Of a stretch of 46,410 nucleotides of DNA, positions 5,407-19,913 are shown one piece after another. Position 1 is the stretch's first letter. Each line of letters begins with the position of its first letter. The translations under genes and the position numbers were made by a program. The notes beneath the pieces were generated by a model. That model had not been told where the DNA came from and did no database searches. It saw only the letters and a program-made list of their open reading frames with translations. The DNA comes from a virus (taxonomy: Duplodnaviria > Heunggongvirae > Uroviricota > Caudoviricetes), in the IMG/VR virus record IMGVR_UViG_2721755497_000002, positions 1 through 46,410 of that record; one strand, given 5' to 3'.

Positions 5407-5459
5407 GGGCGGCAGAGCAGTCACGGAGTAAAACTGATACCGCCAAACGTCACCAGAAA
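5407..5459 (-). ncRNA. dicF: DicF small RNA (Hfq-dependent, represses ftsZ)
   Basis: Reverse complement reads TTTCTGGTGACGTTTGGCGGTATCAGTTTTACTCCGTGACTGCTCTGCCGCCC followed by a U-tract; lies between ydfC and dicB as in Qin. Confidence 0.8.
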
Positions 5460-6333: not shown

Positions 6334-6622
6334 GCTGACCTCATTTCCCCTTAACGCCGGGGTAGCGGAACAAAAACCTGCTGCATAGTTATTAAAGTTG
6401 AACCCTGCCGTCATGTTCTTACGCCTCGGGCTGGCTACTTAACCCCTGACCACTGCCTGGTAACTCGAAGTATTGCCCGGCGTTCTGTGGGGCGGGGTGG
6501 GTTGGTAGATTCAGTTTAATAAACATTAAACTGAAGTCAAGTAAAAACTAAATCATGGGGCGTAACAAACACAACGCTTTTGATAAAGTCGTTGCGGTTG
6601 TTATTTCTATTGGTAGTGAAAG

Positions 6623-6901
6623 TTAGGGAAACTGGCGTCTTGCGTGGATCACGTTTACTACTTCAACGCTTGATGTTGTTACGCGGTATAGAATTATATA
6701 GTTAGGGTGGGCCACAATCTCACGCAAGCCAGGTACTCTGTCGCTTGGTGGGTATAAATACGGATGTTCGGATAATGGCAGCACACAACCCCTTAATCGC
6801 TGCCATAAGCGTTCAGCCGCATCTACGTCGAAACGAGCAATATAACTAGTTATATCATCTAGGTCGGTATCTGCGCTTTCAAGCCATAACACGGGTAACA
6901 T
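6623..6901 (-). CDS. ParE/RelE-family type II toxin (candidate)
   Basis: About 92 aa from internal Met (MLPVLWLESADTDLDDITSYIARF...IHARRQFP); size and composition typical of ParE/RelE toxins; start is 1 nt after the stop of the upstream small gene. Confidence 0.65.
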   Translation of the reverse strand: MLPVLWLESADTDLDDITSYIARFDVDAAERLWQRLRGCVLPLSEHPYLYPPSDRVPGLREIVAHPNYIILYRVTTSSVEVVNVIHARRQFP

Positions 6902-6902
6902 T

Positions 6903-7094
6903 TTACTGCTTGCTCCGTTCCTTCCGCATTTTAGCAAAGCGTTCTGCCATTCTGCGCTCAACTTCGTCATGGGGAATTGCTGGGCGCGGATCTGCAAGGC
7001 TTGTTGCTACTTTCGCACGCAGCCATTCGTTGTAACTGTTTTCTTGTTCAATGGTTTCAAATTCAGAAACCATTGGTGAAAGGGCTCTATTCAT
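6903..7094 (-). CDS. Cognate antitoxin candidate (small DNA-binding protein)
   Basis: 63 aa from internal Met (MNRALSPMVSEFETIEQENSYNEWLRAK...); GGAGG Shine-Dalgarno 4 nt upstream; immediately upstream of and coupled to the toxin gene. Confidence 0.55.
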   Translation of the reverse strand: MNRALSPMVSEFETIEQENSYNEWLRAKVATSLADPRPAIPHDEVERRMAERFAKMRKERSKQ

Positions 7095-7114
7095 GTTTCC
7101 TCCGGTTTTATAAC

Positions 7115-10230: not shown

Positions 10231-10944
10231 ATGGAAACCGTTTTTGACGCACTGAAAGCACTGAAAAAAGCCTCGTCGCACGAGATTGCAGCCCGTCTTG
10301 AAATCAGCCGTGACGATGCTGTTACCGAACTCTGGAAGCTGAAGCGTCGTGGTGAGGCTGATAACAAGGGGTCGATGTGGTGGCCGACGAGTGAGGCAAG
10401 TGAAGCGGTCCCAAAAACCACAGCAGAGATGCTGATTAACGCGATTGAACAGCATGGTCCTCAGTCGGCTGACGAACTGGCGTTAATGTTCGGGATTACC
10501 TCCCGCCGGGCGAATTCATCACTGGCGATGGCAATCAGCAAAGGTCGTCTGATTCGCGTTAATCAGGACGGTAAATATCGTTACTGCATACCGGGCGATA
10601 ATTTACCGACAGAGCCGAAAGCTGCATCGGTAACGGAAACCGATGGTAAAGCCTTTCCTCAGCCAGCAGGTGTTGCGTTACCAGTCCGGGAAGCGGAAAC
10701 ACAGGAAGAAATTAAAACTGAAAGTGTGGCGGTCACAGTGCAGTCACAGCCGTCGTTCACCAGAAAGCATCCGGATAGTCTGATTTTACCATCGCTGCAT
10801 GTGGCTAACCGCGAACTGCGCCGGGCAAAAGGTCAGGTTCAGAAGTGGGAGCGAGTCTGTGCTGCGCTGCGTGAGCTGAACAAGCACCAGGATATTGTTC
10901 GACAGATTACTGATTCATCCTGTTGTGTTGCATCAGAAAAGTGA
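10231..10944 (+). CDS. Hypothetical protein (nin-like region), possible winged-helix repeats
   Basis: ATG at 10231 with GGAGG Shine-Dalgarno; 237 aa; no recognisable catalytic motif. Confidence 0.55.
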
Positions 10945-10959
10945 TTGCAGGGGACGCTG

Positions 10960-11382
10960 ATGGCAAGAGTATTTACACCAGAAGAGCGGGAAAAAATTAA
11001 GGGGCAGGTTGTTGAACTCGTACGCCAGAGCGGTCGCGAGACGTTACGGCAACTGGAAGCTAAAACAGGTGCAACAAGATATCTGATGAGCGTTCTCGCC
11101 AGAGAGCTGGTTGCCAGTGGTGATGTATACAACTCTGGCTACGGGTTATTTCCGTCTGAACAGGCTCGTAAAGACTGGCAAAACGCCCGCAAAAAACTTT
11201 CAAGGGCAAAGGTGAAGAAACCGGCTGTGGTTGATCCGGACCTTATCTGGTCATTACCAGACGGAGAAATACGCCGCTACGACAGGCGCCTGAACATAAT
11301 CTGTCGCGAGTGCCGGAATAGTGAAGTTATGCAGCGTGTGCTGGCGTTTTATCAGGGTAATTTTCAGGAGGTGATGGCGTGA
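10960..11382 (+). CDS. Hypothetical protein
   Basis: ORF 10945..11382 (track start is TTG); first ATG at 10960 (MARVFTPEE...). Confidence 0.5.
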   Translation: MARVFTPEEREKIKGQVVELVRQSGRETLRQLEAKTGATRYLMSVLARELVASGDVYNSGYGLFPSEQARKDWQNARKKLSRAKVKKPAVVDPDLIWSLPDGEIRRYDRRLNIICRECRNSEVMQRVLAFYQGNFQEVMA

Positions 11383-11678
11383 GGGTGAGAGTTTATATTG
11401 CCGGTCCAATGACCGGGTATAAAAATTTCAACCGTGAGGCGTTCCACAAGGCGGAAGAGGAACTGAAACGGGAAGGGCATACAGTCTTAAACCCGGCAGT
11501 ACTTCCGGACGGGCTGACACAGCCACACTACATGGATATTTGCATGGCAATGATTCGTTGTGTTGATGCGATTTACATGCTGAAAGGCTGGCAGCGGTCA
11601 GCAGGCGCTAAGGCAGAACTGGCGCTGGCGGAGAAGCTGGGGCATGCAGTTATTTTTCAGGAGGCAAACAGTGAGTAA
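11379..11678 (+). CDS. DUF4406-like protein (nucleoside 2-deoxyribosyltransferase-like fold)
   Basis: 99 aa; GTG start with GGAGG upstream; N-terminal VYIAGPMTG motif typical of the family. Confidence 0.6.
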   Translation: MRVRVYIAGPMTGYKNFNREAFHKAEEELKREGHTVLNPAVLPDGLTQPHYMDICMAMIRCVDAIYMLKGWQRSAGAKAELALAEKLGHAVIFQEANSE

Positions 11679-12207
11679 CCAATGGCGACCAGATATTTGC
11701 CCTATAACCGGACGTGCATTTTTCATGTGGATTGAGCATCCGACATTGGGAAATGTGCCGACGTATGGTGGCCCATTAGATAGCTACACCATCCCAACAA
11801 AGGACAGCGACGGTGAGTTTTCATGTGAGCGTTACGATCATGATTTCGGTGGCTGGGTAGAAAGCGAATGTCTTGGGTTATATCTGATTGATGATAAAGA
11901 ACAATGCAGAGTCTACGAACTCGAGGAGCGCGTTAAAGAGCTGGAAGCGCGGGAAATAAAACCGGCCAAGGGCGAAGTTCTTGTCGTTGTATCTGGTTTT
12001 ACTGGTTGCGGAAAAAGCGCCATTGCCGGGGAAATAGAAATCGCGATGAAGGCTATTGGTGTACCGGTTCAGTGGACTAATGGCGATGCAGAAAAGCGCA
12101 TGACAGGAGCTGACTGGCTGACAGCAATTGAGATGTACAAACCAACTGTGCGCATTGTGGAAGTTAATGTGCCACGCGTCGCTGGCATTCGCATCAAAGG
12201 AGAGTGA
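11671..12207 (+). CDS. Hypothetical protein with Walker A-like P-loop (SGFTGCGKS)
   Basis: GTG at 11671 preceded by AGGAGG (alternative ATG at 11644); overlaps upstream stop. Confidence 0.5.
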   Translation: MSNQWRPDICPITGRAFFMWIEHPTLGNVPTYGGPLDSYTIPTKDSDGEFSCERYDHDFGGWVESECLGLYLIDDKEQCRVYELEERVKELEAREIKPAKGEVLVVVSGFTGCGKSAIAGEIEIAMKAIGVPVQWTNGDAEKRMTGADWLTAIEMYKPTVRIVEVNVPRVAGIRIKGE

Positions 12208-12208
12208 C

Positions 12209-12565
12209 GTGGAAATAAATCCAGAAGATGAGTTAAGCAATATCGTTTTATTTCCGGTAAAAGAGGATGACCCACGTAATCAGGTTAATTTTATTTATGA
12301 GCCATCGGAAAGACCATACTGCCATCACGCCTCTGTCCGGGTTGATGAAAAAGAGCGTCAGGTCCGGTGCAAAATATGCGGTGCGGTGGTGGAACCATTT
12401 GACTTGATGCTCTCTGTGGCGAAAAGAGAAACCAGACTGGCGGATGATGTAAAGCTATTGAGGCAGGAGGAACGGGAAAGGCGTAAAAATATAGAAAAGC
12501 TAATCCAGATTGAGCGTAATGCGAAAGCGCGGATACGCAGGGCGACAAAAACCAGGCCAGAATAA
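12209..12565 (+). CDS. Hypothetical protein with zinc-ribbon-like motif and basic coiled-coil tail
   Basis: GTG at about 12209 after AAAGGAGAG; motif CHH...CKIC; ORF track 12128..12565. Confidence 0.45.
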   Translation: MEINPEDELSNIVLFPVKEDDPRNQVNFIYEPSERPYCHHASVRVDEKERQVRCKICGAVVEPFDLMLSVAKRETRLADDVKLLRQEERERRKNIEKLIQIERNAKARIRRATKTRPE

Positions 12566-12610
12566 ACAATATTATTATCGAAAATAAAATACTTAACCGG
12601 ATGAATATCT

Positions 12611-12823
12611 ATGTCAAATATTCAGAAAACCATTAACACTGAAAAATATAACGAGTGGGTGAAAAAATTCTCTGAGCAGGTTTTTAAAATTACTGGTGAC
12701 GAGAATGCGGCAAAAAATGAATTAGAACCGTGGACACTTGAAGGAACCGACCCAAATTATTGCTGGTGGGAGGTTGATCCGGTTGATGCTGCAAATGAAG
12801 CCATGAGTTATTACGACGATTAA
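12611..12823 (+). CDS. Hypothetical small acidic protein
   Basis: 70-aa ORF with compact spacing in the operon. Confidence 0.45.
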   Translation: MSNIQKTINTEKYNEWVKKFSEQVFKITGDENAAKNELEPWTLEGTDPNYCWWEVDPVDAANEAMSYYDD

Positions 12824-12858
12824 TGTCTGGAGGCAGCCCGAAAGGGCGGTAATGAAAA

Positions 12859-13527
12859 ATGAATGAATTAACCAAAGAATGGTTACAGAACACGATTACC
12901 GGAATTGAATCGATAATGGACGATACATCGTTTGTATGTAGCGAAATAGCATTCGAAATCGGTAAGGTTAAAAACGTACTTACCGCATTTAAAATTGCGC
13001 TGGCATCGCTGGAAGAAGAGCCGATAGCGTGGCGATATCGCTACGTGAAAAAAGGTGTTACGGACTATCAGGGGGAGCTGTGGGTTGGTGACTGGAAATA
13101 TGTACCGACAAAAGAGGATTGCAACGACAGGCCGAACTATGAAATTCAGGCGTTATTCACTTCCCCGCCTGTGCCAGTAGTACCTGAAGAAAAACCAATG
13201 CCTAACCCTCTTAAAATGTACGCGGTCGATGCTGTTGCCGCTATTGCAGAGGTGAGAGGCTGGAACGCCTGCCGCGCCGCTATGCTTCAGAGTCAAGATA
13301 GTGGCATCAAAGATGGTTGGATAAGCTGTAGCGAGCGAATGCAGGATAGCAAAACAGGTGTTCTTGTTGCGCGCGAGCTTGACGGGAAAGGTGACTGGCG
13401 AATGAAATGGGCGACTTACATCCCGGGTCATCCTGACGCTAATGACGGGTGGCTAATTCCTGGGGCGTCATGGAAACCGTCACACTGGATGCCACTGCCA
13501 GAACCGCCGCAGGAGGTGAATCAATGA
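12859..13527 (+). CDS. Hypothetical protein, DUF551-like C-terminus (WMPLPEPP)
   Basis: 222-aa ORF; C-terminal motif typical of phage nin-region DUF551 proteins. Confidence 0.55.
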   Translation: MNELTKEWLQNTITGIESIMDDTSFVCSEIAFEIGKVKNVLTAFKIALASLEEEPIAWRYRYVKKGVTDYQGELWVGDWKYVPTKEDCNDRPNYEIQALFTSPPVPVVPEEKPMPNPLKMYAVDAVAAIAEVRGWNACRAAMLQSQDSGIKDGWISCSERMQDSKTGVLVARELDGKGDWRMKWATYIPGHPDANDGWLIPGASWKPSHWMPLPEPPQEVNQ

Positions 13528-13607
13528 CCTGGCCTGAAGCATTCACCACGGTAGGGATTGCAATGGCGGTGGCACTGGTGGTGTATTCGATTTGCAGCTG
13601 GGGATGA
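13524..13607 (+). CDS. Possible 27-aa hydrophobic peptide (MTWPEAFTTVGIAMAVALVVYSICSWG)
   Basis: ATG overlaps upstream stop (ATGA); single predicted transmembrane helix; not in ORF track. Confidence 0.25.
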   Translation: MTWPEAFTTVGIAMAVALVVYSICSWG

Positions 13608-13617
13608 TAAGTAGCAC

Positions 13618-13645
13618 GGTGCGGGGCATTGTTTGCCCCGCTAAT
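13618..13645. terminator. Hairpin GCGGGGCattgtttGCCCCGC between convergent genes; candidate bidirectional terminator
   Basis: Perfect 7-bp GC stem followed by T-rich tract. Confidence 0.45.
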
Positions 13646-13653
13646 TTGATTAT

Positions 13654-13821
13654 TTATTTGGGGGTAATATCCTGAAGTGTAGCGTTTATTTCTTCGCCTG
13701 TATCTGTATTTCTGAGTTGATATGTAATGTCGTCGTTTCTAATAATTTGCACTAAAAGCCATTCTCCATTTTTTTCACGTAAGTGAACAGTACTGTTTTC
13801 TGATATACCATGAACAGTCAT
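13654..13821 (-). CDS. Hypothetical small protein on the opposite strand (about 55 aa from internal Met MTVHGISEN...)
   Basis: ORF 13654..13956 minus in an AT-rich stretch convergent with the nin-like operon; weak support. Confidence 0.3.
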   Translation of the reverse strand: MTVHGISENSTVHLREKNGEWLLVQIIRNDDITYQLRNTDTGEEINATLQDITPK

Positions 13822-14088
13822 TTTTATACCTTTTGTGTTGTGTGAACGATGAGTATAGTCAGAAATGAGACTGTGAAGGGGGATAGAAAATAATAGTTTG
13901 TTTTTGTAGAATCGCTGCGGGTGCTTGGGGCTATCTGTCTCAGGCATGAACACCAAAAGGCAGATAGAGAAAAGCCCCAGTTAACATTACGCGTCCGGCA
14001 AGACGCTTAACATTAATCTGAGGCCATATCTATGACTTGCACGCGTAGGTTAGCCTCTTACGTGCCGAAAGGCAAGGAGAAGCAGGCT

Positions 14089-14244
14089 ATGAAGCAGCAA
14101 AAGGCGATGTTAATCGCCCTGATCGTCATCTGTTTAACCGTCATAGTGACGGCACTGGTAACGAGGAAAGACCTCTGCGAGGTACGAATCCGAACCGGCC
14201 AGACGGAGGTCGCTGTCTTCACAGTCTACGAACCTGAGGAGTAA
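14089..14244 (+). CDS. hokD: Hok/Gef-family type I toxin
   Basis: Internal Met of ORF 14032..14244 gives MKQQKAMLIALIVICLTVIVTALVTRKDLCEVRIRTGQTEVAVFTVYEPEE, a near match to HokD/RelF as recalled; upstream in-frame extension is consistent with a mok-like leader. Confidence 0.8.
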   Translation: MKQQKAMLIALIVICLTVIVTALVTRKDLCEVRIRTGQTEVAVFTVYEPEE

Positions 14245-14312
14245 GAGACCAGGCGGGGGAGAAATCTCCCGCCACCTCTGATGTGTCAGGCATCCTCAAC
14301 GCACCCGCGCTT

Positions 14313-14340
14313 AACCCGCTTCGTCGGGTTTTGTTTTTTC
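14313..14340 (+). terminator. Rho-independent terminator after hok (CCCGcttcgtCGGG + TTTTGTTTTTT)
   Basis: Hairpin followed by T-tract; preceded by a second hairpin GGCGGGGGAGaaatCTCCCGCC. Confidence 0.5.
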
Positions 14341-14411
14341 CTGGCATTCTGGTTTACAATTCGCACGTCAGCCTGAACAACTGGCACCTGCTGCGCCAGC
14401 AGAGACAACCG

Positions 14412-14690
14412 ATGGCGCACGATACCAAATTACACAATTCTGATGATTCTGCCGTCTTTGCCAGCAGGCACGGGCGGCGTTCCCGCACTTTCAAATCTGA
14501 CTGGTTCCAGCATGACCCATGTACTGAAGAACAGGCCGAATGGCTAATTCATAACTATCGCAGACGCGGATACGAGATTAAGAAAGCCCTCAGCCTCGAT
14601 TATCGTCACTGGATAATCTATGTCAGGCTCCCTTATTCCGAACGCCCACCGCGCCCATCCCGCACATACCAGCAACGGATCTGGAGGTAA
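14412..14690 (+). CDS. Rem-like hypothetical protein
   Basis: Internal Met (MAHDTKLHNSDD...) downstream of the hok terminator; position between hok and DUF968 gene mirrors Qin rem. Confidence 0.45.
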   Translation: MAHDTKLHNSDDSAVFASRHGRRSRTFKSDWFQHDPCTEEQAEWLIHNYRRRGYEIKKALSLDYRHWIIYVRLPYSERPPRPSRTYQQRIWR

Positions 14691-18243: not shown

Positions 18244-18319
18244 GGCCCTTTAGCTCAGTGGTGAGAGCGAGCGACTCATAATCGCCAGGTCGCTGGTTCA
18301 AATCCAGCAAGGGCCACCA
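18244..18319 (+). tRNA. tRNA with CAU anticodon (Met or lysidine-dependent Ile2; ileZ-like phage tRNA)
   Basis: 76 nt GGCCCTTTAGCTCAGTGGTGAGAGC...ACTCATAATCG...GGTTCAAATCCAGCAAGGGCCACCA; canonical cloverleaf. Confidence 0.8.
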
Positions 18320-18326
18320 TCTCATA

Positions 18327-18403
18327 CCGCCATTAGCTCATCGGGACAGAGCGCCAGCCTTCGAAGCTGGCGGCGCGGGGTTCGGGTCCTCGATGGCGGT
18401 CCA
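18327..18403 (+). tRNA. tRNA-Arg, anticodon UCG (argN-like phage tRNA)
   Basis: 77 nt; acceptor CCGCCAT/ATGGCGG, anticodon loop CTTCGAA, T-arm CGGGG-TTCGGGT-CCTCG, CCA end. Confidence 0.75.
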
Positions 18404-19104: not shown

Positions 19105-19304
19105 TTCTACATCTTTGCAGTAAACAATAATCATAATTGCATGTTTTTTCTGTGGTGGGGCATTTGGCTTCTGTTGCCTGCGATGTATTGTGGACCTGGT
19201 ATCAGCCTGCAGAAAATGCACACAGGTGTGAAGTGTTAAATTCCTCACAACTCAGAACGCAGAATGTTGTCCTGCTTGCGGGGAATTTGTTAAAAGAGTA
19301 CAGC

Positions 19305-19423
19305 ATGGTGAATCCCCCTGAGCGGAGGGGCATAATGACAGATGTTTGGTCGTGTTATCGTATAGGCAAGTTGCGGATTCTGTCTGGTCATTGCAGAATT
19401 CACCGGGAGGCACCCGGCACCAT
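19305..19423. repeat. Repeat unit copy 1 (about 119 bp): ATGGTGAATCCCCCTGAGCGGAGGGGC ... CACCGGGAGGCACCCGGCACCAT with two GC-rich hairpins
   Basis: Termini shared with copy 2 and mutually reverse-complementary (ATGGTG / CACCAT). Confidence 0.45.
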
Positions 19424-19558
19424 GTATTTTCAATATGTTATTGATCATTCTCTTTTTCGGAATACTCTGGTTATGTTTTCCTGTAACTGATAATTAAATC
19501 ACATTTTGTGTAACTGCATATTGTCTGAACGGGATAAGTTTCAGTATCTTCTGAATGT

Positions 19559-19678
19559 ATGGCGAATCCCCCTGTGCGGCGGGGCGTACTGATTTAAGTA
19601 GTCATCCAAGAATGCAGCTGAATGAAAACGCGCTCCATATTAATCAGTGGTGGAGCACCGGGAGGCACCCGGCGCCAT
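19559..19678. repeat. Repeat unit copy 2 (about 120 bp): ATGGCGAATCCCCCTGTGCGGCGGGGC ... CACCGGGAGGCACCCGGCGCCAT
   Basis: Same terminal hairpin modules as copy 1, divergent interior. Confidence 0.45.
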
Positions 19679-19707
19679 ACCGATGATGAAAGTAAATGCG
19701 TCCATCC

Positions 19708-19732
19708 GCCCCTCTCCGGAGGGGCTTTTTTA
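19708..19732 (+). terminator. Strong rho-independent terminator (GCCCCTCtccgGAGGGGC + TTTTTT) upstream of nanS-p
   Basis: 7-bp GC stem, 4-nt loop, T-tract. Confidence 0.6.
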
Positions 19733-19913
19733 TGGGCAAAAAAAGCCCGCTACGAATGGTAACGGGCTGCACAAAATAACAAAATGTGAAGTATTCTAAT
19801 CAGCCGCTGAATAATACCCGACAGTAATTAATCTGTGCAACGGTGCTTTTTCCCGCCTTGCAGGCACCGACTCTCTCATTTGATTTAACGCATTATCCCG
19901 TCCGGGAGGATTC

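What the first reader, a model, noticed from the sequence alone, without database searches (positions are those of the whole stretch)
11379..12565. Nin-region trio: DUF4406 (nucleoside deoxyribosyltransferase-like), P-loop protein, zinc-ribbon protein
Three translationally coupled genes with overlapping stop/starts and strong Shine-Dalgarno sites. They encode a 99-aa protein with the VYIAGPMTG signature of the nucleoside 2-deoxyribosyltransferase-like fold, a 178-aa protein with a Walker A-like SGFTGCGKS motif, and a 118-aa zinc-ribbon protein with a basic coiled-coil tail. The combination suggests a small nucleotide-processing or nucleotide-sensing unit of unknown purpose.
Basis: inference. 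Interest (0 to 1): 0.45.

Follow-up and report, generated by a model that had tools for sequence, protein, structure and literature searches.

The report
Three unlinked prophage accessory genes
The three tightly packed genes are real, but they are three separately travelling prophage accessory genes rather than one nucleotide-handling machine, and the "P-loop protein" is a shortened member of the mosaic lambda Ea22 family with an undescribed 72-residue Walker-A domain at its variable end.

Summary
Three translationally coupled genes lie at 11379-12565 in the nin-type region of a lambdoid prophage that is 100% identical to E. coli M1/M3.

- **Gene 1** is a clear DUF4406 protein (Pfam E=6e-38).
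- **Gene 2** is not an orphan P-loop protein. It equals the C-terminal 178 residues of 270-310-aa ead/Ea22-like proteins: a conserved 63-75-aa domain, a coiled-coil linker, a swappable C-terminal cassette and the Ea22 "KGE" tail. The Ead/Ea22 N-terminal region is missing.
- **The cassette in gene 2** is a self-contained 72-aa Walker-A domain. It occurs in 439 protein clusters, shows pN/pS of 0.02-0.04, and has no Pfam family.
- **Gene 3** is a conserved CxH...CxxC zinc ribbon followed by an invariant basic helix.

Among 5426 E. coli genomes, the genes occur in 1220, 355 and 1679 genomes, but together in only 75. In other genera, neither DUF4406 nor gene 3 keeps the other two genes as neighbours. 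In 12 of 14 such loci, gene 3 sits directly upstream of an antiterminator Q gene.

The coupling comes from junction sequences that act as Shine-Dalgarno sites, and I infer they also serve as recombination joints. Overall interest is modest.

The parts
11366..11371 (+). Shine-Dalgarno AGGAGG for g1, lying inside the 3' end of the upstream DUF977 gene
   Evidence: Sequence read directly; 7 nt before GTG 11379.
11379..11678 (+). g1: DUF4406 protein, 99 aa, with a nucleoside 2-deoxyribosyltransferase/DNPH1-like fold. Candidate catalytic residues are Y6, D53, S74 and E80.
   Evidence: Pfam PF14359 E=6e-38, 129.6 bits against a cut-off of 22. Weak hits to PF05014, PF09152 and PF24963. PHROG 355 'nucleoside 2-deoxyribosyltransferase' E=5e-48. 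Invariant Y6, D53, S74 and E80 in 40 homologues. pN/pS 0.11.
11659..11664 (+). Shine-Dalgarno AGGAGG for g2, encoded in the last codons of g1. The recombination joint lies just downstream, at about 11665-11674.
   Evidence: DNA alignment shows homology to other DUF4406 3' ends stopping after CAGGAGG, and homology to internal Ea22-like sequence of P7 starting at GTAACCAATGG.
11671..12207 (+). g2: short-form ead/Ea22-family protein, 178 aa, lacking the Ead_Ea22 N-terminal region
   Evidence: 85-96% identical over its whole length to the C-terminal 178 aa of 269-310-aa proteins that carry PF13935 and are named ead/Ea22-like (P0003, P0004, P0006). No Pfam hit of its own.
11677..11907 (+). Conserved domain WRPDICPITGR...YGGP...CERYDHDxGGW (g2 aa 3-79). 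It probably corresponds to the '63-aa segment absent from lambda Ea22' described in the literature.
   Evidence: Invariant in 18 aligned homologues. Present in P7 upf88.3 and Stx-phage Ea22-like genes. Tandemly duplicated in P0013. pN/pS 0.04. Described in PMC10834534.
11908..11958 (+). Coiled-coil linker ending ...ELEERVKELEAREI, which is the upstream boundary of the variable cassette slot
   Evidence: Conserved across proteins with different cassettes. Helix 81-93 in the low-confidence AF2 model.
11959..12177 (+). 72-73-aa Walker-A cassette (g2 aa 97-169). Walker A GFTGCGKS lies at 11995-12018, followed by an invariant EIEI, EK, T..DW and V.I.E.N.
   Evidence: 439 representative clusters at E<=1e-3 and 348 at E<=1e-10. 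The domain is always about 70 aa and usually 8-9 residues from the C-terminus, in proteins of 110-510 aa that include Stenotrophomonas. 29 invariant columns in 28 diverse copies. Only sub-threshold Pfam hits, confined to the first ~40 positions of APS_kinase (27/28 members), AAA_16 (28/28) and AAA_18 (25/28). pN/pS 0.02-0.04.
12178..12207 (+). Conserved Ea22 tail ...VAGIRIKGE plus stop. Its KGE codons AAA GGA GAG contain the SD AAGGAG (12197-12202) for g3.
   Evidence: The last 27 nt (12181-12207) are identical to the 3' end of lambda ea22. The '+GE' motif is reported as being of unknown significance in PMC7093339. In 67 of 75 distinct tails, an ORF of at least 50 aa starts 2-11 nt downstream, before many unrelated genes.
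12209..12565 (+). g3: 118-aa zinc-ribbon protein. It has an N-terminal ELSN(I/V)VxFP motif, a CxH...CxxC ribbon (about 12314-12394; C38, H40, C54, C57) and one long basic helix (about 12395-12550).
   Evidence: PHROG 1621 E=2e-54, function unknown. Pfam Zn_Ribbon_TF 23.2 bits, below the cut-off of 29. 48-sequence alignment with invariant C38, H40, C54 and C57 and a near-invariant NIEKLIQIERNAKARIRR. AF2 pLDDT 74 with helix 63-114. Codons vary freely in the invariant helix. pN/pS 0.10.

Best explanation
**Overall picture.** The stretch is not one device. It is three independently mobile accessory genes, packed head to tail in the early-right (nin-type) operon of a lambdoid prophage integrated next to tRNA-Ser and mtfA.

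**Why they look like a unit (the SD signals are shown; the joint role is inferred).** Each gene's last codons carry the Shine-Dalgarno site of the next gene. These are CAGGAGG at the end of DUF4406 and AAAGGAGAGTGA at the end of every Ea22-type gene examined. I infer that the same short conserved joints are where recombination swaps neighbours.

**g1 (fold shown, activity inferred).** It is a DUF4406 enzyme of the nucleoside-deoxyribosyltransferase/DNPH1 fold. It keeps the Tyr, Asp, Ser and Glu that this fold uses to cleave N-glycosidic bonds. It most likely hydrolyses or transfers the base of a (deoxy)nucleoside monophosphate or nucleoside early in induction.

**g2 (identity shown, function inferred).** It arose when the DUF4406 3' end was joined to the interior of an ead/Ea22-like gene. 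It keeps the conserved middle domain, the coiled-coil linker, a cassette slot and the KGE tail, but lacks the N-terminal Ead/Ea22 region. The slot holds a 72-aa Walker-A domain that is one of at least four interchangeable cassettes, with lambda's own C-terminal domain being a further, unrelated one. I infer that g2 is a coiled-coil oligomer, like characterised Ea22 proteins. I also infer that it presents a phosphate- or nucleotide-binding head and modulates host physiology or the lysis-lysogeny balance, as Ea22 does.

**g3 (structure features shown, function inferred).** It is a zinc-ribbon protein with a long, strictly conserved basic helix. In other Enterobacterales its home position is immediately upstream of the late antiterminator gene Q. 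I infer that it binds nucleic acid or a conserved host or phage protein and acts independently of g1 and g2.
For: **Identity and context**
- The window is 100% identical to E. coli M3/M1. The genes lie between the replisome organiser, DnaC-like, DUF1627 and DUF977 genes on one side and the DUF551, hokD, DUF968, RusA and Q genes on the other.

**g1**
- Searches support the DUF4406 assignment and the conserved residues.

**g2 is Ea22-family**
- Long PF13935 proteins contain all of g2.
- RefSeq names cassette-bearing genes 'ead/Ea22-like'.
- The KGE tail and mosaic architecture match the published descriptions.
- The tail DNA is identical to lambda ea22.
- The joint was mapped.

**The cassette is autonomous and constrained**
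-.

**Cassette exchange**
- Four cassette classes occupy the same slot. The lambda C-terminal domain is unrelated to the Walker-A cassette.

**Not a unit**
- E. coli counts are 1220, 355 and 1679 genomes against 75 for the whole trio.
- The dominant context of the cassette is Ead N-terminus plus cassette in one ORF, without DUF4406 or g3 (at least 60 of 80 loci).
- DUF4406 in Edwardsiella, Enterobacter and a Klebsiella P2-like element has other neighbours.
- g3 in 14 other species is flanked by NinG, YbcO or RusA-type genes. In 12 of the 14 it is followed by a Pfam-verified Q from three different Q families.

**Joints act as SD sites**
-.

**Longer operon**
-.
Against: - Among close E. coli relatives, the order DUF4406, then some Ea22-type gene, then g3 is common: 36 of 70 DUF4406 loci with enough flank have g3 within 1.5 kb. 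A family-level functional link cannot be excluded from sequence alone. I attribute it to shared descent, because these loci are 88-99% identical and the link vanishes in other genera.
- No biochemical function of any of the three proteins was tested.
- The AF2 model of g2 was unusable (pLDDT 47), so the fold of the cassette is inferred from motifs only.
- The short form of g2 lacks the region that Pfam uses to define Ea22. The literature reports that the lambda C-terminal domain alone is inactive, so Ea22-like activity of g2 is uncertain.
Confidence: 0.75

Rival explanations
1. One reading: the three genes form a dedicated nucleotide-processing or nucleotide-sensing module. An N-glycosidase, a P-loop nucleotide binder and a zinc-ribbon regulator would act together.
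For: The genes are tightly coupled. Two of the three have nucleotide-related motifs. The order DUF4406, Ea22-type gene, g3 recurs in about half of close E. coli DUF4406 loci. Two loci carry DUF4406, a full-length Ea22 with the cassette, then g3.
Against: The exact trio is in 75 of 5426 genomes, against 1220, 355 and 1679 for the parts. The middle gene's cassette is freely exchanged for unrelated ones while the neighbours stay. Most cassette copies have neither partner. Neither DUF4406 nor g3 keeps the other two genes as neighbours in other genera. There is no PADLOC hit. The genes sit inside a longer operon.
Confidence: 0.07
2. g2 is an inert remnant. The recombination that placed DUF4406 in front of it removed the functional N-terminal part of an Ea22-like gene, and the remaining ORF is carried passively.
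For: g2 lacks the PF13935 region. The joint lies inside a formerly longer ORF. The lambda Ea22 C-terminal domain alone does not reproduce the Ea22 phenotype (PMC10834534). The prophage integrase is annotated as frameshifted, so the element may be decaying.
Against: A strong SD sits at ideal spacing before an in-frame GTG. Short forms beginning MSNQWRPD are common and carry three different cassettes (P0001 with 240 member sequences, P0017, P0019). No frameshift or stop appears in 75 genomes. The strong purifying selection was, however, measured mostly on copies in other contexts.
Confidence: 0.15
3. Ea22-type proteins are oligomeric scaffolds that display fast-swapping 'warheads' against host immunity. 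On this view the Walker-A cassette is a nucleotide sponge or a decoy of a host P-loop protein. DUF4406 and g3 would be further counter-defence or host-takeover genes gathered in the same hotspot.
For: Cassette swapping at a fixed slot is typical of arms-race genes. The cassette has spread across Enterobacterales and Xanthomonadales prophages and P1/P7-type plasmid prophages. A 2026 preprint reports an anti-OLD protein related to P22 EaE that can be fused to EaD/Ea22, and calls such loci reservoirs of anti-immunity proteins. The NDT fold is used as an N-glycosidase in nucleotide-pool manipulation by phages.
Against: There is no direct evidence. The only experimentally supported role of Ea22 is favouring lysogeny. 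The very high sequence conservation of the cassette (pN/pS 0.02-0.04) does not resemble a rapidly co-evolving inhibitor surface.
Confidence: 0.2

Closest known systems
Lambda Ea22 and the Stx-phage Ea22 variants V1-V3 (ead/Ea22-like family, PF13935/IPR025153)
   Same: g2 shares the 63-75-aa middle domain of the Stx-type variants, a coiled-coil segment and a variable C-terminal domain slot. It also shares the terminal K/R-G-E tripeptide, and its last 27 nt are identical to lambda ea22.
   Different: g2 lacks the N-terminal Ead/Ea22 signature region and the first coiled coil. It lies in the nin-type region rather than between exo and xis. Its C-terminal domain is a Walker-A domain not mentioned in the Ea22 papers read, and it is unrelated to the solved lambda C-terminal domain.
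DNPH1/Rcl (2'-deoxynucleoside 5'-phosphate N-hydrolase) and nucleoside 2-deoxyribosyltransferases (PF05014)
   Same: g1 belongs to a sister Pfam family (DUF4406) and gives weak full-length hits to PF05014. It keeps residues that align with the catalytic Tyr, Asp and Glu and the phosphate-binding Ser.
   Different: g1 has only 99 aa and lacks the C-terminal part of DNPH1. No PDB relative is detectable by sequence. Substrate and activity are unknown.
P-loop kinases (APS kinase type) and minimal or designed P-loop proteins (PDB 6c2u 'phosphate-loop protein', 9jix)
   Same: The strand, Walker A and helix element, followed by a strand and an acidic 'NGD.EK' stretch, resembles the first ~40-45 residues of APS kinase. 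The minimal designed P-loop proteins appear among the weak PDB profile hits.
   Different: The cassette has only 72 residues, so it has no room for the five-stranded core and substrate lid of real kinases. All matches are below family thresholds. It is a natural, mobile, C-terminal module of prophage mosaic proteins.
TFIIB-type zinc ribbons (PF08271)
   Same: g3 has four conserved metal ligands on two beta hairpins. Its best Pfam and Foldseek matches are TFIIB N-terminal ribbons.
   Different: The first knuckle is CxH rather than CxxC/H. Scores are below threshold (23.2 against 29 bits; Foldseek E=0.18). The 52-residue invariant basic helix and the N-terminal ELSNVVxFP motif have no counterpart.

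Membership tests
DUF4406 (PF14359) | Match to the family HMM above the gathering score | tested here: met
   129.6 bits against a cut-off of 22, E=6e-38, covering profile positions 2-91 of 91.
Nucleoside 2-deoxyribosyltransferase / DNPH1 enzymes | Catalytic Glu nucleophile with Tyr and Asp, plus the phosphate-binding Ser for DNPH1 | tested here: inconclusive
   Y6, D53, S74 and E80 are invariant in 40 homologues. The PF05014 hit scores 13.9 bits against a cut-off of 28.8.
Nucleoside 2-deoxyribosyltransferase / DNPH1 enzymes | N-glycosidase or transferase activity on (deoxy)nucleosides or nucleotides | not testable with these tools
   Needs an enzyme assay.
ead/Ea22-like (PF13935 / IPR025153) | N-terminal Ead_Ea22 signature region | tested here: not met
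   g2 has no PF13935 hit. In the alignment, g2 starts after this region.
ead/Ea22-like (PF13935 / IPR025153) | Homology of the remainder to accepted family members | tested here: met
   85-96% identity over 100% of g2 to P0003, P0004 and P0006, which carry PF13935 and the NCBI name ead/Ea22-like.
ead/Ea22-like (PF13935 / IPR025153) | Terminal basic-Gly-Glu tripeptide | tested here: met
   g2 ends ...IRIKGE. The motif is described in PMC7093339. The tail DNA is identical to lambda ea22.
ead/Ea22-like (PF13935 / IPR025153) | Position in the exo-xis / early-left region | tested here: not met
   Here the gene lies between the replication genes and Q. Other cassette-bearing copies are in early-left regions.
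ead/Ea22-like (PF13935 / IPR025153) | Tetramer formation and pro-lysogenic effect | not testable with these tools
   Known only from experiments on lambda and Stx-phage proteins.
P-loop NTPases | Walker A motif GxxxxGK[ST] after a beta strand | tested here: met
   VLVVVSGFTGCGKS. G13, T15, G16, G18, K19 and S20 are invariant in 28 diverse copies.
P-loop NTPases | Walker B motif (hydrophobic strand ending in Asp or Glu) | tested here: inconclusive
P-loop NTPases | Complete five-stranded alpha/beta core, and a match to a family model above threshold | tested here: not met
   The domain has 72 aa and is self-contained. The best Pfam hits cover only the first ~40 model positions and fall below the cut-offs. 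PDB profile hits have E>=0.005.
TFIIB-type zinc ribbon (PF08271) | Four conserved zinc ligands on two hairpins | tested here: met
   C38, H40, C54 and C57 are invariant in 48 sequences. Strands 43-46, 51-54 and 60-61 appear in the AF2 model.
TFIIB-type zinc ribbon (PF08271) | Match to the family HMM above the gathering score, or a significant fold match | tested here: not met
   23.2 bits against a cut-off of 29. Foldseek top hit is 1pft at E=0.18. Nothing significant in BFVD.
Known anti-phage defence systems (PADLOC) | Match to any model in the defence-protein library | tested here: not met
   No hits for g1 or g2, and only a chance-level hit for g3 (E=0.025).

The most novel reading that the evidence does not exclude
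The 72-residue Walker-A cassette may be a natural, autonomous, minimal P-loop domain, far smaller than any canonical P-loop NTPase. On this reading it binds a nucleotide or phosphorylated ligand on its own or across an Ea22-type oligomer. Prophages of several proteobacterial orders would then shuffle it as a plug-in head to sense, sequester or mimic a host nucleotide-dependent factor. A second, smaller novelty concerns the g3 family, which is almost always parked directly upstream of Q genes of three unrelated families. It could be an unrecognised regulator of the late-gene switch.
Probability: 0.2. Interest if true: 0.6.

Novelty: new variant of a known kind. Interest (0 to 1): 0.3.

Why it matters
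- **For annotation.** The result removes a tempting but wrong "operon equals pathway" reading. It also gives a name, short-form Ea22 family, to a gene that RefSeq calls hypothetical.
- **For Ea22 biology.** It adds a widespread, strongly constrained Walker-A C-terminal domain to the list of Ea22 heads. It also offers a simple explanation for the K/R-G-E tail, whose significance the Ea22 literature lists as unknown. The tail's codons form the ribosome-binding site, and probably the recombination joint, for whatever gene follows.
- **If the cassette binds nucleotides by itself.** It would be a natural counterpart of the minimal P-loop proteins built in the laboratory to model early enzyme evolution.
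- **For g3.** Its position next to Q gives a concrete candidate to test in late-gene regulation of lambdoid phages.

Tried and rejected
- **PDB sequence searches.** Searches with each protein and with profiles of DUF4406 and the cassette found nothing significant.
- **Library searches.** NCBIfam and PADLOC gave nothing useful.
- **Fold searches with the g3 model.** Searches against PDB and BFVD returned only zinc-ribbon fragments below significance. The afdb50 library was not available.
- **Is the cassette a diverged lambda Ea22 C-terminal domain?** I tested this because lambda has 'HPGKT' after a strand. It was rejected: hhalign E=0.42 with only 13 aligned columns elsewhere, and the lambda domain never appeared in the PDB searches.
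- **Is the invariant g3 helix conserved because of an embedded DNA or RNA signal upstream of Q?** Rejected, because up to 6 synonymous codons are used at invariant residues.
- **A stand-alone three-gene operon.** Rejected: the scan found no promoter or terminator matches that would set the trio apart from its neighbours.
- **Literature.** Searches for DUF4406 and for Ea22 with ATP or P-loop found no functional study of these proteins.
Full report
**1. Observation**

The window is a lambdoid prophage that is 100% identical to E. coli strains M3 and M1. It is integrated beside tRNA-Ser and mtfA.

- g1, 11379-11678, GTG start, 99 aa
- g2, 11671-12207, GTG start, 178 aa
- g3, 12209-12565, GTG start, 118 aa

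Each start is preceded by a strong Shine-Dalgarno site at 6-7 nt: AGGAGG at 11366-11371, AGGAGG at 11659-11664 and AAGGAG at 12197-12202. Starts and stops overlap or abut. PGAP calls g2 from ATG 11644. However, the GTG has the better ribosome-binding site, and many database entries begin MSNQWRPD.

The consensus scan of 10500-14500 found no promoter or terminator matches that set the trio apart. Its only nearby matches are a weak minus-strand terminator-like site at 11284-11272 and a promoter-like site at 12563-12590. The first plus-strand terminator-like hairpin lies at 13621-13641, after the DUF551 gene. All modules are under purifying selection, with pN/pS of 0.02-0.11.

**2. What each gene is**

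*g1.* This is an unambiguous DUF4406 protein: Pfam E=6e-38 and PHROG 355 "nucleoside 2-deoxyribosyltransferase". Forty homologues keep Y6, D53, S74 and E80 invariant. No solved relative is detectable by sequence.

*g2.* This gene has no Pfam family, but its homologues are revealing. Proteins of 269-310 aa that carry PF13935 and are named "ead/Ea22-like" contain the whole of g2 as their C-terminal 178 residues, at 85-96% identity. The alignment resolves these modules:
- the Ead/Ea22 N-terminal region plus a first coiled coil, which is absent from g2
- an invariant domain WRPDICPITGR...CERYDHDxGGW (g2 aa 3-79)
- a linker ...ELEERVKELEAREI
- a variable cassette
- the tail AGIRIKGE

The published descriptions of Ea22 match this layout. 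They report an N-terminal region, a coiled coil, non-homologous portable C-terminal domains, a 63-aa segment present in Stx-phage variants but not in lambda, and a terminal K/R-G-E "of unknown significance" (PMC7093339 and PMC10834534). The last 27 nt of g2 are identical to the 3' end of lambda ea22.

DNA alignment puts the joint that created the short form between CAGGAGG, at the end of DUF4406, and GTAACCAATGG, which is internal Ea22 sequence encoding R-N-Q-W.

*The Walker-A cassette.* Residues 97-169 of g2 (window 11959-12177) were searched alone against 1.84 billion representative proteins. This gave 439 clusters at E<=1e-3 and 348 at E<=1e-10.
- The matched stretch is always about 70 residues. 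It usually ends 8-9 residues before the C-terminus.
- It occurs in proteins of 110-510 aa whose other parts are unrelated. These include GC-rich mosaic proteins, two of which are from Stenotrophomonas maltophilia.
- Twenty-nine columns are invariant in 28 diverse copies. They include the Walker A motif G-x-T-G-x-G-K-S, then A-x-A-G-E-I-E-I, E-K, T-x-x-D, and V-x-I-x-E.
- Pfam gives only sub-threshold matches, confined to the first strand, P-loop and helix (plus the next strand) of APS_kinase (27/28 members), AAA_16 (28/28) and AAA_18 (25/28). PDB profile hits are all weak.
- Across 42 distinct DNA variants, pS is 0.14-0.17 and pN is 0.003-0.005.

*g3.* This gene belongs to PHROG 1621, of unknown function. 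A 48-sequence alignment spanning Escherichia to Erwinia, Serratia and Yersinia shows three conserved features:
- invariant C38, H40, C54 and C57
- a conserved N-terminal ELSN(V/I)VxFP motif
- an almost invariant C-terminal LRxEExxRRxNIEKLIQIERNAKARIRR

AF2 (pLDDT 74) gives a small ribbon followed by a single 52-residue helix. The best fold and Pfam matches are TFIIB-type ribbons, below significance. The helix is conserved at the protein level, because invariant Leu and Arg positions use five or six different codons.

**3. Is it a unit?**

The evidence is as follows.
- **E. coli genomes.** Among 5426 complete genomes, g1 DNA is present in 1220, the cassette in 355 (81 places on plasmids) and g3 in 1679. 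The contiguous trio is in only 75, including ST131 strains. Only one of 50,697 phage records has all three.
- **Closest cassette loci.** Of the 80 closest in IMG/VR, at least 60 are "Ead N-terminus plus cassette" in a single ORF with neither neighbour. Three have DUF4406 upstream and six have g3 downstream.
- **Closest DUF4406 loci.** Of the 70 among the closest 80 with enough flank, 36 have g3 within 1.5 kb. Between them there is usually some Ea22-type gene, most often a different one (MREVNYEALRE...QLPTRY...AGIRIKGE). Three loci have the exact trio. These loci are 88-99% identical, so the linkage reflects shared descent.
- **Distant DUF4406 loci.** In Edwardsiella it lies between P22-type ea genes and a 3'-5' exonuclease. 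In Enterobacter it follows a Dcm/Dam methylase and precedes DUF1382 and TraR. In a Klebsiella P2-like element it precedes the GPA replication gene. None has g3 or the cassette.
- **Distant g3 loci.** In 14 species outside Escherichia and Shigella, no locus has DUF4406 or the g2 domains next to g3. One Yersinia locus has DUF4406 1.4 kb downstream. Instead g3 follows NinG, YbcO, RusA-type or HNH genes. In 12 of the 14, the next gene is a Pfam-verified antiterminator Q from three unrelated families: PF06323 six times, PF06530 five times and PF03589 once.

The trio is thus a local, recent combination of three separately mobile genes.

**4. Why they look like a unit**

The joints explain the appearance of a unit. 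The DUF4406 3' end supplies CAGGAGG for whatever follows it, either the ATG of a full Ea22-type gene or the GTG of the short form.

The Ea22 tail AAA-GGA-GAG-TGA supplies AAGGAG. In 67 of 75 distinct tails in the fetched loci, an ORF of at least 50 aa starts 2-11 nt downstream, typically as AAAGGAGAGTGAnATG. These ORFs include many unrelated downstream genes.

This gives a simple reading of the K/R-G-E motif: it is the protein-level shadow of a ribosome-binding site, and I infer that it is also a recombination joint. The slot boundaries ...ELEAREI and AGIRIKGE flank four cassette classes in the sample, with lambda's own C-terminal domain being a further, unrelated one. The same EIKP microhomology links the coiled coil to the body of g3 in natural in-frame fusions such as P0129.

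**5. Mechanism, with shown and inferred steps**

*Shown:*
- gene structures and coupling signals
- family assignments
- the mosaic architecture of g2
- the autonomy and constraint of the cassette
- the lack of co-conservation
- the Q-proximal home of g3

*Inferred:*
- g1 is an N-glycosidase or transferase acting on (deoxy)nucleoside monophosphates or nucleosides.
- g2 oligomerises through its coiled coil and presents a phosphate- or nucleotide-binding head. It would modulate host physiology or the lysis-lysogeny balance, as reported for Ea22.
- g3 binds nucleic acid or a conserved protein through its basic helix and may relate to the late switch.

An anti-defence role for Ea22-type scaffolds is possible. 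A 2026 preprint notes fusions of an anti-OLD protein to EaD/Ea22. This role is untested, and the cassette's extreme conservation does not look like an arms-race surface.

**6. Verdict**

The per-gene calls are right. The "P-loop protein" is a short-form Ea22-family member with an undescribed Walker-A cassette. The proposed three-gene nucleotide unit is not supported.

For novelty, this is a new variant of a known kind. Interest is modest (0.3). It rests mainly on the minimal Walker-A domain, the SD/joint explanation of the Ea22 tail, and the Q-adjacent zinc-ribbon family.

Noticed in passing
window 12181-12211; also L001-L190 and lambda L192:548-575: The Ea22 'K/R-G-E' tail, reported as being of unknown significance, is encoded by AAAGGAGAG followed by TGA-n-ATG/GTG, so it is a Shine-Dalgarno site for the next gene. 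67 of 75 distinct tails have an ORF of at least 50 aa starting 2-11 nt downstream, before many unrelated genes. Lambda keeps the identical 27-nt tail but has no coupled gene there.
   Followed up: partly
L010-L024 (g3 homologues in 14 non-Escherichia Enterobacterales); window 12209-12565: The g3 family sits immediately upstream of the antiterminator Q gene in 12 of 14 species, whichever of three unrelated Q families is present. In this window it has moved about 3.5 kb away from Q.
   Followed up: yes
window 12395-12550 (g3 aa 63-114): A helix of about 30 residues (LRxEExxRRxNIEKLIQIERNAKARIRR) is nearly invariant between genera that are otherwise 45-55% identical, while its codons vary freely. 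It has no known partner or function.
   Followed up: partly
window 12859-13527: The DUF551 protein two genes downstream carries another domain that the literature lists as a portable Ea22 C-terminal domain (variant V2). Several 'ea-region' type genes have therefore collected in the nin-type region of this prophage.
   Followed up: no
proteins P0013, P0032, P0129, P0237 (relatives): Natural rearrangements occur at the same joints. These are a tandem duplication of the WRPD domain (P0013), DUF4406 joined to the g2 frame with QRQTV in place of QEANSE at the joint, consistent with a small frameshift (P0032), an Ead N-terminus and coiled coil fused in frame to the g3 body (P0129), and DUF4406 fused to part of g3 (P0237).
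   Followed up: no
L048:4130-4525: A distant paralogue of g3 (131 aa, CxH...CxxC...EKNAKARL...) lies about 0.85 kb downstream of DUF4406 in another prophage, so the zinc-ribbon family is broader than PHROG 1621.
   Followed up: no
window 5407-5458 (-), 13919-14094 (+), 19274-19478 and 19529-19737 (+), 18244-18400 (+): Rfam finds DicF, the sok antitoxin RNA next to hokD, two tandem copies of sRNA STnc100, and tRNA genes after Q.
   Followed up: no
window about 1000-2060 (L002:2631-3681) and about 6620-7100 (L002:8245-8716): RefSeq annotates the prophage integrase as frameshifted, so the element may be defective. A RelE/RelB toxin-antitoxin pair sits next to the immunity region.
   Followed up: no
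E. coli plasmid records; P7 L004:2730-3416: 81 of the 395 cassette matches in E. coli genomes are on plasmids. P7 carries an Ea22-like gene (upf88.3) with the WRPD domain, so the Ea22 module pool is probably shared between lambdoid prophages and P1/P7-like plasmid prophages.
   Followed up: no
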